DNA of 64,000 nt, from positions 39,131-103,130 of the IMG/VR virus record IMGVR_UViG_651053023_000001; one strand, given 5' to 3'. The DNA comes from a virus (taxonomy: Duplodnaviria; Heunggongvirae; Uroviricota; Caudoviricetes). Shown in pieces: positions 6,089-9,000 of the stretch (position 1 is its first letter; each line of letters opens with the position of its first letter). Position numbers: made by a program.

Positions 6089-9000
6089 TTAACAGATTCT
6101 ACGAGTTGTCATTTGTGACAGTATGCTCGCAATCGTAGTGATTACTACCACCAACTGCTAGCTTTCTTCTCTCTAGCTTTTCCTTCGCTTTGCAGTAAAT
6201 CTTTACTTCCTGTAGAAATATTTCTATTTGCATCAGCCTCAGACTGAATTACATCTGTCTTAGCTGCTCTCTCCTTCAACTCCTGCTCTATAAAATCGTT
6301 TTCTCGCTGGACACGAGCCGCTTTTGCTTGCAGTTCGAGTTTCATGCTTTCGAGTTGCAGCTTGCGAAGCTCATCCTCATAAGCTTGATCTCGCTTCTTG
6401 TCATTTGCTAGCTCGGCTTCTCGTTTCGCTCTACGTTCATTTTCTGCAGCAACACGCTGTTTTTCGCGTGCAGCAGCGGCAGATGCTGCTTTTTCTCTTC
6501 TAATACGTTCAGCTTGTGCTTGTTGGCGAATAAGTTCTTTTCTGGCATCCTCAGCTTGCTGCTCTTTAGCTCGCCCTTCATTTTCCGCTTGAGCAATAGC
6601 AGCAATTTGACTTTGCAACGAGTTAGCCAAGGCAGTGCCTACACTAAACGTAGAAAAGATTAGAAATAAAATAATTTTATTCATAAATTATTTCTTTTCT
6701 GGACAAGTAGCATTTGGCTGAATTCGAGTTTCATTATCTTTAGTTGAAATAAGCACAGCAAGCCCCGTTGTAAACTGGCATGCTTTACCAACTTGAGTTG
6801 AAGTGAACACCTTAGTTCCTTCTTTATAAGTCAGTGAAACACCTTCAACAATTGTTTTATCACTAACCAAAGAACCAGCCGCTGCACCAAGAGCCGCACC
6901 ACCAGTACCGCCAGCTACAGCACCCAGTGTCGATGTGCCTTTAACATTATAACCGGCAACGCCCCCAGCAACAGCTCCCAGTACCGCACCAAATGTCTGT
7001 GCCGCTTCTTTATTAGCTTTATTATCAACTTTCACTTTAGCTGGAAGCACAGAGATAATATTGACTGTCTTTGTTTCCTGCTTCGAATTCAATTGAGCGG
7101 TATCATAAACATCGGCAGCATAATCAGCACCGCTAGATTGACACCCAGAAAGAAGAATTGCAGATACAACAAGAGCGCATAAAGTATACTTTTTAGACAT
7201 AAGAATCATCCCAGAAAAACAAAAACCGGCGAGAAGTTACCACGAGAACGGAAAGTAAACAAGAATACTCCCATTGACTTATATCAATTAATCAACTTTT
7301 TATAAGCTATCCCTAACTTATTGTGTATAGCTGAAAAGTCAGAGACAAGTTCACCATCTGCATTATTTCTTAAGTTAATAGTTTATTGCTAACTTAATTT
7401 ATGCATCGACTATTGATATCCATCTTAAAGTTACAATATCCCTCTGCATTATTTTTCATCACAAATAATATATCTATTGCACGACACTAACCTGCTCTAA
7501 TAAATTTGTATTTTTAAGTCGCGAATGCTATCTTTTCGCATCATATTGACCTTTTAATCGTTCAGGCTTATAGTTTCGCCGTCGTAGCAAATTCTGCGAC
7601 CGGGTTTAGCAGCCTGAATGATTGTGCGGACAGCCGCAGATATCCGATATTGCGGTATTTTTGTGTCCGTAAAACCGCGTTACGCCCAAATTATGGTGGG
7701 GCGTGATGGGGAGGCTTCGGCCTGCTGGTTTCACAATCGCCAGTCTGCTAACCCCGTCACGTCCTGCCACCTGTTTAGCAGCGGGTAGCAGGTTGTTAAA
7801 CCTGATTGTGAGGCCGTAACTATGGTTAATGCCAATCCTTGCGCACGCCAAGAATTCATCTGGCGTTTCTATTCCTGCAAAAAACACCACTATCACTTCG
7901 TCATCGCAGCAACAGAAGACGAAGCACGCTCTCAATTGCCTGATGGCCCCTGCATTTTTACTGCCCGTTTTTCAACTAACTCGCGCAATTCACTTAGTTA
8001 CTGGAACCTCCCCTTCTCTGCCGACGTTCAGGGGGGTTTATGAAAAAACCTCTCGTCACCCGTAATGAAATAGCCGAAGCGATCGCCCTGCATACAACCT
8101 GTATGCCGACACGGGAGATCCCCGGCGCAATTGCCAACTATTTCATGATAACCAGGCGTTTTTATACCCGAACAGATAAGGCTGTGATCAACAAGCTACT
8201 GATAGCCGAGATCAGGGATTATTTGATTGAACAAGGACGTCTACGTTACGCAACAGTGGCAGCAGAAATAAGAAAGGAGGCACATAGAATGACCGGTAAT
8301 AATTTGAATGTTGAAAAAACAGCACCTGTTACGTCAGCTACGCCAGCACCAGCCGTGAATATCATCCCCAACACCGGAGACACAATCGACAGCCAAACAT
8401 TGTTGAAGATGGTCAATGAGGCACGCAAGTTATGTGGAGAACCAGAGGTTAGAAACAATAAATTCATCGAAAAAATACTCGATGAACTTGAAGGTGAATT
8501 TTACACAAAAAGTGCAAAATCCCATGGCACAAGGGCTGGGCGCTCTTTTGAGGTCATCACCATGACCTACAAACAAGCCCTGCGAGTTGCCGCGCGCGAG
8601 TCAAAAGCGGTCCGCCGTTCGCTGATCGACAAACTGGAAGAATTACAGCAGGCAAACTCCCCTACCCCATCGATCCCCCAGACATTACCAGAAGCCCTAC
8701 GCCTGGCTGCCGAGTTAGCAGAACAGAAAATGCAGTTGGAACAACAGCTGGTGGCCGCAGCCCCTAAAGTCGATTTTGCCGACCGGGTATCAGTGGCCAA
8801 TGGAATCCTGATCGGGAACTTTGCAAAGGTCGTTGGACTTAAGCAAAACGCCCTTTTCTCATGGTTGCGCCAGAATGGCATTCTCATGGCTTTTGGAGCG
8901 CGCAAAAACGTACCGCGCCAACAGTACATCAACGCCGGGTATTTCACGGTGAAAGAAGTGGTGCTGGATGATGAAAATGGCTACCAGATACGGCTGACGC

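What the first reader, a model, noticed from the sequence alone, without database searches (positions are those of the whole stretch)
6145..7209. Two exported proteins (lipoprotein with glycine zipper, secreted coiled-coil protein) between the tail operon and the immI region
This is where a P1-type genome carries the sim superimmunity genes, whose product is also exported. Both ORFs here have clear export signals and no enzymatic motifs, which fits an envelope-acting exclusion or lysogenic-conversion function, but I cannot tell from sequence whether they are sim homologs or a replacement cassette.
Basis: inference. Interest (0 to 1): 0.5.

Follow-up and report, generated by a model that had tools for sequence, protein, structure and literature searches.

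The report
Phage-borne copy of yfgH-yfgI envelope operon
In this P7-type phage-plasmid the place where phage P1 keeps its sim exclusion genes holds an unrelated two-gene cassette, a diverged copy of the bacterial yfgH-yfgI outer-membrane operon, which most likely alters or strengthens the lysogen's outer membrane; the genes are already annotated, but their role in the phage is untested.

Summary
Two co-oriented minus-strand ORFs fill 6145-7209: a 173-aa lipoprotein (lipobox LSGC, glycine zipper) and a 179-aa signal-peptide protein predicted as one long helix.

Both are 100% identical to phage P7 Upf50.5 and Upf50.0. They show no similarity to P1 SimA/B/C. A 1376-bp block (6117-7492), lying between the LPsit late promoter and the C1 operator of c4, replaces P1's sim block.

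The pair is a diverged paralog (67% and 48% aa identity) of the E. coli core operon yfgH-yfgI. The lipoprotein family matches SlyB over its full length (PDB 7ojf, profile E 1e-9; Foldseek E 1e-6). TraT is only a distant relative. The partner is DUF5384 and always lies directly downstream of a YfgH-type gene (79/79 genome loci, 80/80 viral loci).

Two P1-type alleles differ with dN/dS of 0.04-0.06. About 27% of P1-like plasmids in PLSDB carry the cassette.

YfgH was recently reported to stabilise the outer membrane. The best reading is therefore a lysogenic-conversion envelope module. Superinfection exclusion, as a functional replacement for Sim, is not excluded and is untested.

This is a new member of a known kind, of modest interest.

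The parts
6688..7209 (-). Gene for a 173-aa (probably 170-aa, start at 7200) outer-membrane lipoprotein of the YfgH/SlyB glycine-zipper family; identical to P7 Upf50.5
   Evidence: ORF. 173/173 identical to P7 Upf50.5. Lipobox LSGC and glycine zipper. 67% aa identity to E. coli YfgH. Family profile hits SlyB 7ojf at E 1.2e-9 over the full length. Foldseek top hit 7ojf_A, E 9.7e-7.
6145..6684 (-). Gene for a 179-aa exported all-helical protein of family DUF5384 (YfgI-like); identical to P7 Upf50.0. It starts 3 nt after the lipoprotein stop codon, so the two are probably translationally coupled.
   Evidence: ORF. 179/179 identical to P7 Upf50.0. Pfam PF17358 E 3e-43. AlphaFold2 single helix, pLDDT 88. 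Conserved N-terminal motif and C-terminal 85 residues around a variable spacer.
7210..7492 (-). AT-rich (32% GC) upstream region that belongs to the swapped block; presumed promoter and regulatory region of the cassette
   Evidence: GC content. Only a weak sigma-70-like match at 7476..7448. Conserved islands shared with the diverged P1-type allele L033.
7274..7287 (-). Dyad TTGATATAAGTCAA (FNR/CRP-type, TTGAT-N4-ATCAA with one mismatch), about 87 nt upstream of the ATG at 7200
   Evidence: Only match in the 64-kb window. Present at a similar position in L033 (-89), where it is a perfect FNR-type box, and in the Salmonella prophage copy L008 (-88 or -94, depending on how the start was set). Absent upstream of the other 84 loci scanned, which are mostly chromosomal. 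Function not shown.
6117..7492 (.). The 1376-bp block that replaces the ~1.5-kb simC-simB-simA block of P1
   Evidence: Three-way alignment of window, P7 and P1. Flanks are 96-99% identical and the interior is unalignable. GC is 40% against 48% for the window.
6096..6115 (-). Late promoter LPsit of the tail operon, marking the left boundary of the swap (context)
   Evidence: Transferred from the P7 annotation (L001 2197-2216, offset 3899).
7491..7507 (+). C1 repressor operator Op(c4), marking the right boundary of the swap (context)
   Evidence: Transferred from the P7 annotation (L001 3592-3608). Homology with P1 resumes at 7493 inside this operator.

Best explanation
What it is (shown). The two genes are the P7-type alternative cassette at the hypervariable sim locus of P1-like phage-plasmids. 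It is a horizontally acquired, long-diverged copy of the proteobacterial (mainly gammaproteobacterial) two-gene envelope operon yfgH-yfgI.

How it probably works (inferred from homologs). The lipoprotein is exported, lipidated at Cys23 and sorted to the outer membrane. Like SlyB, and as modelled for YfgH, it would insert its glycine-zipper helical hairpin into the membrane and assemble into rings. Those rings would enclose outer-membrane proteins and lipid patches. The DUF5384 partner is a periplasmic helical rod of up to about 24 nm with conserved ends, and would act together with the ring as a tether or scaffold.

What it would do for the phage (inferred). Expressed from the prophage under its own promoter, the pair would change or reinforce the lysogen's outer membrane. 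This is lysogenic conversion towards envelope-stress tolerance, benefiting the carrier cell and so the phage-plasmid. The same membrane change could also reduce superinfection as a side effect.
For: Identity and swap:
- 100% identity to P7 Upf50.5 and Upf50.0.
- Clean block swap against P1 sim.
- The sim region is a recognised hypervariable, low-GC region of P1-like phage-plasmids (PMC9603915).

Orthology-level similarity to yfgH-yfgI:
- yfgH-yfgI is present in 5419 of 5426 complete E. coli genomes.

Structural relationship of the lipoprotein:
- Profile hit to SlyB 7ojf, E 1.2e-9, covering residues 6-153 of 155.
- Foldseek top hit is SlyB, E 9.7e-7, probability 1.00.
- Predicted secondary structure is beta, two helices, beta.

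Reported function of the homologs:
- YfgH loss sensitises cells to SDS/EDTA and destabilises outer-membrane proteins. Overexpression rescues knock-downs of outer-membrane biogenesis genes (bioRxiv 10.64898/2025.12.22.696046).
- yfgH shows aggravating genetic interactions with lptD (PMC3219608).

Obligate pairing of the two genes:
- 80/80 viral loci and 79/79 genome loci spanning Enterobacterales to Pseudomonas and some Alpha- and Betaproteobacteria.

Maintained by selection in phage-plasmids:
- dN/dS 0.06 and 0.04 between two P1-type alleles.
- 168 of 628 P1-like plasmids in PLSDB carry the cassette.

Independent captures in moron-like positions:
- A P2-like prophage, a Salmonella prophage and a ~102-kb Rep3 replicon.

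Whole-prophage phenotype:
- Curing phi456, which is 99.9% identical here, lowers survival in H2O2, at pH 3 and in macrophages (PMC10967188).
Against: - No experiment addresses the phage-borne copy.
- The phi456 phenotypes are whole-prophage effects. The authors attribute them to changes in rpoS, katE and oxyR transcripts, not to these genes.
- Expression in the lysogen is not shown. The promoter scan found only a weak site next to the C1 operator, so C1 could in principle keep the cassette off in lysogens.
- Almost every E. coli host already has yfgH-yfgI, so a purely redundant stabiliser is not an obvious benefit.
- The AlphaFold2 model of the lipoprotein is of low confidence (pLDDT 57). Ring formation is only modelled, even for YfgH itself.
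- The role of DUF5384 is unknown. The only reported phenotype is nalidixic-acid sensitivity of a yfgI mutant (PMC3536626).
Confidence: 0.55

Rival explanations
1. Superinfection exclusion. The cassette would be the functional replacement of Sim. The ring-forming lipoprotein, with its periplasmic partner, would mask or cage outer-membrane receptors, or would block tail penetration or DNA passage through the envelope. The lysogen, or the freshly infected cell, would then resist P1/P7-type or unrelated phages. TraT does the equivalent for conjugation, and Llp and Cor do it for FhuA-dependent phages.
For: - Same locus, orientation and boundaries as simABC.
- Every cassette type seen at this locus encodes exported proteins. 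SimA, SimB and SimC all have signal-peptide-like N-termini, and the third type in L013 has two such proteins.
- Weak Pfam TraT hit, E 7e-5 over 87 residues. TraT decamers rank 2, 3 and 5 in the fold search.
- TraT is itself a chromosomal lipoprotein co-opted repeatedly by plasmids for exclusion (PMC11733297).
- YfgH is reported to contact many outer-membrane proteins.
- The host already has yfgH-yfgI, so a diverged second copy suggests a new task.
Against: - No homology to Sim and no hit in PADLOC.
- The TraT relationship is below Pfam's threshold, and the fold matches are not significant (E 0.24-0.34).
- The closest characterised relatives, YfgH and SlyB, are membrane stabilisers, and no phage phenotype was found for them in the papers searched.
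- From my own knowledge, P1 adsorbs to the LPS core rather than to a protein, so receptor caging would not obviously stop P1 itself.
Confidence: 0.25
2. Lytic-cycle helper. The pair would be made during phage development. It would keep the outer membrane intact until programmed lysis, or inactivate receptors on debris so that progeny are not lost.
For: - The cassette is co-oriented with the late tail operon and lies directly upstream of it, with no terminator-like site between the DUF5384 gene and LPsit.
- The only promoter-like match upstream abuts the C1 operator, so transcription could rise on induction.
Against: - P1 completes its lytic cycle with sim in this position. The sim genes score as non-essential in a P1 CRISPRi screen (PMC10695390).
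- The same pair sits in chromosomes with no phage nearby.
- No late-promoter element was found inside the block.
Confidence: 0.08
3. Virion components or a DNA methyltransferase, as some database records label them. phi456 has 'tail tip protein' and 'minor tail protein'. RefSeq and PHROG 1277 have 'DNA methyltransferase'.
For: Only the labels themselves.
Against: - There is no structural-protein or methyltransferase domain in Pfam or NCBIfam. PHROGs adds only the 'DNA methyltransferase' label on phrog_1277 and a weak, non-significant match to a tail-associated lysin.
- Both proteins carry export signals.
- Their homologs are chromosomal envelope genes.
- P1 virions form without them.
Confidence: 0.02

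Closest known systems
E. coli YfgH-YfgI (core-genome operon between yfgG and guaA)
   Same: - Same two genes in the same order, with a near-zero intergenic gap.
- Same lengths: 172 and 179 aa against 170-173 and 179 aa.
- 67% and 48% aa identity.
- Same lipobox, glycine zipper and two conserved Cys residues in the C-terminal domain.
- Same DUF5384 architecture.
   Different: - Carried on a phage-plasmid, at the sim locus.
- Synonymous sites are saturated against the E. coli copy, so this is an old divergence or a capture from another, lower-GC host.
- The upstream region is different and carries an FNR/CRP-type dyad that the chromosomal copies lack.
- The function of the phage copy is untested.
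SlyB (PhoP-regulated outer-membrane lipoprotein; cryo-EM rings around BamA and lipid nanodomains, PDB 7ojf/7ojg)
   Same: - Full-length profile match (E 1.2e-9) and best fold match.
- Same topology: lipidated N-terminus, beta strand, glycine-zipper helical hairpin, beta domain.
   Different: - About 25% identity only.
- SlyB has no DUF5384 partner gene (own knowledge; not checked here).
- SlyB lacks the two conserved cysteines (alignment).
- Genetic suppressors of slyB and yfgH mutants differ: Mla pathway against clsA.
TraT (IncF surface-exclusion and serum-resistance lipoprotein; decameric, PDB 9fs5/9fsm/9e2v)
   Same: - Outer-membrane lipoprotein with a helical membrane anchor and a beta-sandwich.
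- A chromosomal family co-opted by mobile elements.
- Weak Pfam match over 87 residues.
   Different: - Below Pfam's gathering score (23.1 against 31 bits).
- Fold matches are not significant.
- TraT is 225-226 residues in the solved chains, against 173 here.
- TraT's functional domain is extracellular.
P1 SimA/SimB/SimC (superimmunity; per my own knowledge, exclusion after adsorption)
   Same: - Same genomic slot, orientation and boundaries.
- All products have signal-peptide-like N-termini.
- Low GC.
- The sim genes are dispensable for lytic growth of P1; the same is assumed, not shown, for this cassette.
   Different: - No sequence similarity.
- Three genes rather than two.
- No lipoprotein among the Sim proteins.

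Membership tests
YfgH family (SlyB-like glycine-zipper 2TM outer-membrane lipoproteins) | Lipoprotein signal peptide with lipobox and a non-Asp residue at +2 (outer-membrane sorting) | tested here: met
   LSGC at residues 20-23, followed by Gln. Cys23 is invariant in 40 homologs.
YfgH family (SlyB-like glycine-zipper 2TM outer-membrane lipoproteins) | Full-length sequence homology to E. coli YfgH | tested here: met
   67% aa identity over the full length. The E. coli YfgH cluster P0093 scores E 6.5e-64. RefSeq names the chromosomal match yfgH.
YfgH family (SlyB-like glycine-zipper 2TM outer-membrane lipoproteins) | SlyB-type fold (beta strand, glycine-zipper helical hairpin, beta domain) | tested here: met
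   Profile against PDB: 7ojf, E 1.2e-9. Foldseek: 7ojf_A, E 9.7e-7, TM 0.48/0.57. The model itself has low confidence, pLDDT 57.
YfgH family (SlyB-like glycine-zipper 2TM outer-membrane lipoproteins) | Oligomeric ring in the outer membrane; stabilises outer-membrane proteins and lipids under stress | not testable with these tools
   No multimer prediction or experiment was available. For YfgH itself the rings are only AlphaFold3 models.
DUF5384 / YfgI | Match to Pfam PF17358 above the gathering score | tested here: met
   147.8 bits against a cut-off of 25, E 3e-43, profile positions 4-145 of 145.
DUF5384 / YfgI | Encoded immediately downstream of a YfgH-type lipoprotein gene on the same strand | tested here: met
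   3-nt gap in the window. 80/80 viral loci. 79/79 genome loci: 61 pass a strict gap rule, and in the other 18 the lipoprotein ORF lies immediately upstream on the same strand, where stop-to-stop ORF extents overlap.
P1 Sim superimmunity proteins | Sequence similarity to SimA, SimB or SimC | tested here: not met
   Best BLASTP E 0.07, 19 bits, 30 residues.
P1 Sim superimmunity proteins | Confers exclusion of superinfecting P1 when expressed | not testable with these tools
   Needs plating, adsorption and DNA-entry assays.
TraT surface-exclusion lipoprotein | Match to Pfam PF05818 above the gathering score; a mature protein of about 225 residues with an extracellular beta-sandwich | tested here: not met
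   23.1 bits against a cut-off of 31, covering only profile positions 74-160 of 214. Foldseek matches to 9fsm, 9fs5 and 9e2v at E 0.24-0.34 with TM about 0.2. Length here is 173 aa.
Known anti-phage defence systems (PADLOC-DB 2.0) | Match to any defence-protein model | tested here: not met
   No family at E <= 1 for either protein.
Virion structural proteins (labels in the phi456 record) | Homology to tail or baseplate families, or a requirement for virion formation | tested here: not met
   No significant structural-family hit in Pfam or PHROGs. P1 lacks the genes yet has the same tail operon.
DNA methyltransferase (label of PHROG 1277 and RefSeq) | Methyltransferase domain or motifs | tested here: not met
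   No methyltransferase family in Pfam or NCBIfam. The protein is an exported lipoprotein.

The most novel reading that the evidence does not exclude
The cassette could be a previously unrecognised two-component superinfection-exclusion system that took over the job of Sim. A SlyB/TraT-type ring lipoprotein, together with a periplasm-spanning DUF5384 rod, would block phage entry at the outer membrane or in the periplasm. That would be the first anti-phage role for the YfgH-YfgI family and the first function for DUF5384. It would parallel the way plasmids co-opted chromosomal TraT.
Probability: 0.2. Interest if true: 0.6.

Novelty: new member of a known kind. Interest (0 to 1): 0.3.

Why it matters
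P1-like phage-plasmids are common carriers of resistance genes in E. coli and Salmonella. About a quarter of those in PLSDB carry this cassette instead of sim.

If the cassette strengthens the outer membrane, it is a fitness or tolerance factor that spreads with the phage-plasmid. It would then be one candidate for the stress-survival and colonisation phenotypes reported for phi456.

If instead it excludes phages, it defines a new exclusion mechanism built from a housekeeping envelope module.

Either way it offers a natural, portable two-gene system for working out what YfgI/DUF5384 does. The strict pairing of DUF5384 with YfgH-type lipoproteins shows that YfgH should not be studied alone. The recent YfgH preprint does not mention yfgI.

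It also corrects misleading labels, 'DNA methyltransferase' and 'tail tip' or 'minor tail protein', that are propagating in phage records.

Tried and rejected
- Single-sequence searches of the PDB for both proteins gave nothing meaningful. Only the family profile found SlyB. The DUF5384 profile found no solved relative.
- No fold search was run for DUF5384, because a single long helix gives uninformative matches.
- NCBIfam and PADLOC gave no usable hit.
- The weak PHROG hits to Cor and to Rz-like spanin cover only the signal peptide and lipobox, and were dismissed.
- I first recalled yfjS/yfjT and yafY/ykfB as the K-12 homologs. The E. coli genome search showed that the true homologs are yfgH/yfgI.
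- The ~60 IMG/VR 'viral' hits at 66-69% identity looked like further phage captures. They are the chromosomal yfgH-yfgI (98% identical to E. coli YfgH) at the edge of a prophage inserted between yfgI and guaA.
- The ~102-kb Salmonella contig L012 could not be linked to any GenBank phage. Its status as a phage-plasmid is unproven.
- A PhoP-box-like repeat (TGTTTA-N5-CGTTCT) upstream was considered and dropped, because the second half-site is poor and the spacing to any -10 element is wrong.
- No consistent promoter geometry could be assigned to the FNR/CRP-type dyad.
- Searches for upf50.0, upf50.5 and DUF5384 in the paper library returned nothing. The P1 genome paper (PMC523184) is not held.
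Full report
**1.

The interval 6145-7209 contains two minus-strand ORFs, 6688..7209 (173 aa) and 6145..6684 (179 aa). Only 3 nt separate them.

The first ORF has a lipoprotein signal peptide. Its lipobox is L-S-G-C at residues 20-23, with Gln at +2. A dense run of G/AxxxG/A motifs lies at residues 70-112.

The second ORF has a cleavable signal peptide (...TALA|NS). AlphaFold2 predicts one continuous helix with mean pLDDT 88. About 41% of its mature residues are charged.

The likelier start of the lipoprotein gene is the second ATG, at 7200. A GGGA lies 7 nt upstream, and the resulting 170 aa matches homolog lengths of 170-172 aa.

**2. Genomic setting**

The window is a P7-type punavirus (P1-like phage-plasmid) here. 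The stretch 5400-8100 is 99.9% identical to phage phi456 and 98.9% identical to P7. Both proteins are residue-for-residue identical to P7 Upf50.5 and Upf50.0.

- To the left lie the homologs of pmgC/tubA, tub and pmgB, and the late promoter LPsit.
- To the right lie the C1 operator of c4, the C4 antisense RNA (Rfam RF01695, 7689-7774) with its a1b1 targets (7568-7620), then icd, ant1/2 and kilA.

**3. A replacement cassette, not sim homologs**

A three-way alignment of the window, P7 and P1 shows near-identity up to 6116, just past LPsit, and again from 7493, inside the C1 operator. In between, 1376 bp of the window face about 1.5 kb of P1 carrying simC, simB and simA, and nothing aligns.

BLASTP of the two proteins against SimA/B/C gives nothing better than E 0.07 at 19 bits. 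The block has 40% GC against 48% for the window.

The sim region is already listed as one of eight hypervariable, low-GC regions of P1-like phage-plasmids (PMC9603915). The sim genes are dispensable in P1 (PMC10695390).

In PLSDB, 628 plasmids match the flanks and 168 of them (27%) carry this cassette. Among 5426 complete E. coli genomes, 181 carry it, nearly always on plasmids.

Other P1-like plasmids carry sim variants or a third cassette type. The third type has three small ORFs. Two have signal peptides and one has a SimA-like N-terminus. Every variant seen at this locus therefore encodes exported proteins.

**4. What the genes are**

A DNA search of all complete E. coli genomes found a ~69% identical chromosomal locus in 5419 of 5426 genomes. 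RefSeq annotates it as yfgH (glycine zipper 2TM lipoprotein) and yfgI (DUF5384), lying between yfgG and guaA. Protein identity to the K-12 copies is 67% and 48%. Synonymous sites are saturated, so this is not a recent capture from E. coli.

- The second protein matches Pfam DUF5384 at E 3e-43.
- The lipoprotein has only sub-threshold Pfam hits: TraT at 23.1 bits against a cut-off of 31, and Rick_17kDa_Anti.
- A profile of 40 family members matches SlyB (PDB 7ojf/7ojg) at E 1.2e-9 over essentially the whole of both proteins.
- The AlphaFold2 model is of low confidence (pLDDT 57). Its predicted secondary structure is beta, helix, helix, beta, and it finds SlyB as the only significant fold match (E 9.7e-7). 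TraT decamers come next at non-significant E values of 0.24-0.34.
- Family-specific features are two invariant cysteines (C144 and C169) and an NETRIQPN motif in the C-terminal domain.

**5. The two genes form one unit**

A YfgH-type gene lies immediately upstream of the DUF5384 gene, on the same strand, in all 80 IMG/VR loci and in all 79 species-representative genome loci that held a DUF5384 gene. Of those 79, 61 pass a strict gap rule. In the other 18 the lipoprotein ORF is also directly upstream, and the apparent overlap comes from stop-to-stop ORF extents.

The taxa run from Enterobacterales, Pasteurellaceae, Photobacterium and Aeromonadales to Pseudomonas and Acinetobacter, with a few Alpha- and Betaproteobacteria.

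In Citrobacter and Xenorhabdus the pair sits among housekeeping genes.

DUF5384 has three parts:
- a conserved N-terminal motif just after the signal peptide;
- a poorly conserved charged spacer of variable length;
- a well-conserved C-terminal stretch of about 85 residues ending in an aromatic pair.

This is the layout of a rod or tether with a binding site at each end. As one helix, the mature protein would be about 24 nm long. That reading is an inference.

**6. Mobile-element copies**

- A diverged P1-type allele exists (L033, 84% and 80% aa identity). It carries an extra DUF559/REase-like gene between the cassette and pmgC. dN/dS against the window allele is 0.06 and 0.04, so both genes are kept by selection in phage-plasmids.
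- The pair also lies at the tail-fibre end of a P2-like prophage, next to tail-fibre-like genes in a Salmonella prophage, and beside a Rep3 replication gene on a ~102-kb Salmonella contig.
- About 60 IMG/VR contigs, and the GenBank record of phage TL-2011b, carry the pair at their very end. These are the host's own yfgH-yfgI (98% identical to E. coli YfgH) next to a prophage inserted between yfgI and guaA.
- That arrangement shows one easy route by which a phage could pick up the operon.

**7. Regulation (weak evidence)**

The 283-bp upstream region belongs to the swapped block and has 32% GC. The consensus scan finds only a weak sigma-70-like site, at 7476..7448, abutting the C1 operator.

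Comparison with L033 shows conserved islands: the ribosome-binding region, and a dyad TTGATATAAGTCAA at 7274-7287.

- In L033 this dyad is a perfect FNR-type box, TTGAT-N4-ATCAA.
- The Salmonella prophage copy has TTGACCAAAGTCAA at a similar distance.
- None of the other 84 loci scanned, which are mostly chromosomal, has TTGA-N6-TCAA within 250 nt upstream.
- It is the only such site in the 64-kb window, although one chance match is expected in 29% of shuffles.

I could not fit the dyad to a standard promoter geometry, so it remains a lead only. In S. Typhi the orthologous operon (srgIL) is activated by SdiA (PMC11619404).

**8. Function**

Shown for homologs:
- yfgH deletion causes sensitivity to detergent and EDTA, raises outer-membrane permeability, and causes loss of outer-membrane proteins. 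The gene becomes essential when outer-membrane biogenesis is depleted.
- Overexpression rescues these defects. clsA mutations suppress the deletion. AlphaFold3 models suggest SlyB-like rings (bioRxiv 10.64898/2025.12.22.696046).
- yfgH interacts genetically with lptD (PMC3219608).
- A yfgI mutant is hypersensitive to nalidixic acid (PMC3536626).

For the phage copy there is only a whole-prophage result. Curing phi456 reduces survival in H2O2, at pH 3 and in macrophages, and reduces colonisation. No gene was assigned to these effects (PMC10967188).

My best explanation (confidence about 0.55) is a lysogenic-conversion module. An outer-membrane ring-forming lipoprotein and its periplasmic rod would reinforce or remodel the lysogen's outer membrane.

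The main rival (about 0.25) is superinfection exclusion. In its favour:
- the position at the sim slot;
- the exported-protein theme of the locus;
- the distant kinship with TraT, itself a chromosomal lipoprotein repeatedly co-opted by plasmids for exclusion (PMC11733297);
- the puzzle of why a host that already has yfgH-yfgI would keep a diverged second copy.

A role in the lytic cycle is possible but less likely. The 'tail tip', 'minor tail' and 'DNA methyltransferase' labels are unsupported.

**9. Novelty and score**

The genes have been in GenBank since the P7 genome deposit, annotated as proteins of unknown function similar to E. coli K-12 proteins. No paper in the library mentions upf50.0, upf50.5 or DUF5384. 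None describes a phage-borne YfgH-type or SlyB-type lipoprotein.

What this analysis adds:
- the assignment to the yfgH-yfgI family and the SlyB fold;
- the obligate pairing with DUF5384;
- evidence for selection in phage-plasmids and for repeated capture;
- a regulatory lead.

This makes it a new, phage-borne member of a known kind. It is useful but not surprising to a specialist, so interest is 0.3. The exclusion reading would raise that to about 0.6 if it proved true.

Noticed in passing
window 6688-7209; RefSeq records NC_050152, NC_031129, NC_042128, NC_019445: PHROG 1277 is labelled 'DNA methyltransferase', and RefSeq phage records give that name to this 173-aa exported lipoprotein. No methyltransferase domain is detectable. 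It looks like a propagated mis-annotation.
   Followed up: yes
L177 (phi456, OR339795) 1246-1731 and 1789-2301: The phi456 record calls the DUF5384 gene 'tail tip protein' and the lipoprotein gene 'minor tail protein'. It also uses shorter gene models. No evidence supports either label.
   Followed up: yes
L013 (CP148519.1, pZ1322PEC0253-2) 824-2000: A third cassette type occupies the sim locus of P1-like plasmids. It has three small ORFs (158, 97 and 108 aa). Two have signal peptides, and one has an N-terminus 90% identical to SimA followed by an unrelated C-terminus. Function unknown.
   Followed up: partly
L033 (IMGVR_UViG_2744054872_000001) 6001-8648: A diverged allele of the cassette (84% and 80% aa identity) sits in a P1-type context. 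A 419-aa DUF559/REase_MTES_1575 endonuclease-like gene is inserted between the DUF5384 gene and pmgC.
   Followed up: partly
L066 and ~60 similar IMG/VR loci; GenBank JQ011317 (phage TL-2011b) 41921-42436: Prophages with a lysis cassette (DUF2514 protein, GH19 endolysin, two holins) are inserted between chromosomal yfgI and guaA in many E. coli strains. The viral records include the host yfgH-yfgI at their end. This is both a boundary artefact and a plausible route for phage capture of the operon.
   Followed up: partly
window 7274-7287 (-): An FNR/CRP-type dyad, TTGATATAAGTCAA, lies about 87 nt upstream of the lipoprotein start. It is conserved in position in two other phage-borne copies and absent upstream of 84 other loci. 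No promoter geometry could be assigned.
   Followed up: partly
window 7491-7507 and 7448-7476: The right edge of the swapped block falls inside the C1 operator of c4. The only sigma-70-like match for a leftward promoter lies 15 nt from it, a geometry similar to that of the predicted PsimA promoter in P1. C1 might therefore influence transcription of whichever cassette sits here.
   Followed up: no
H70 (CP057421.1) 12646-17858: In one P1-like plasmid the match to this region is split into three pieces by an IS2/IS3-family insertion.
   Followed up: no
L161 (E. coli ECMA0423 chromosome) 3407-4288: One E. coli genome representative has only partial matches to both yfgH and yfgI, suggesting decay of the chromosomal operon in that strain.
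   Followed up: no
L104, L125, L130, L174 (genome contigs): Close DUF5384 and YfgH-type pairs appear in assemblies labelled Acinetobacter, Psychrobacter, Verrucomicrobiia (a metagenome-assembled genome) and Brevibacterium (a 336-bp contig). Some may be contamination or recent transfer rather than native genes.
   Followed up: no
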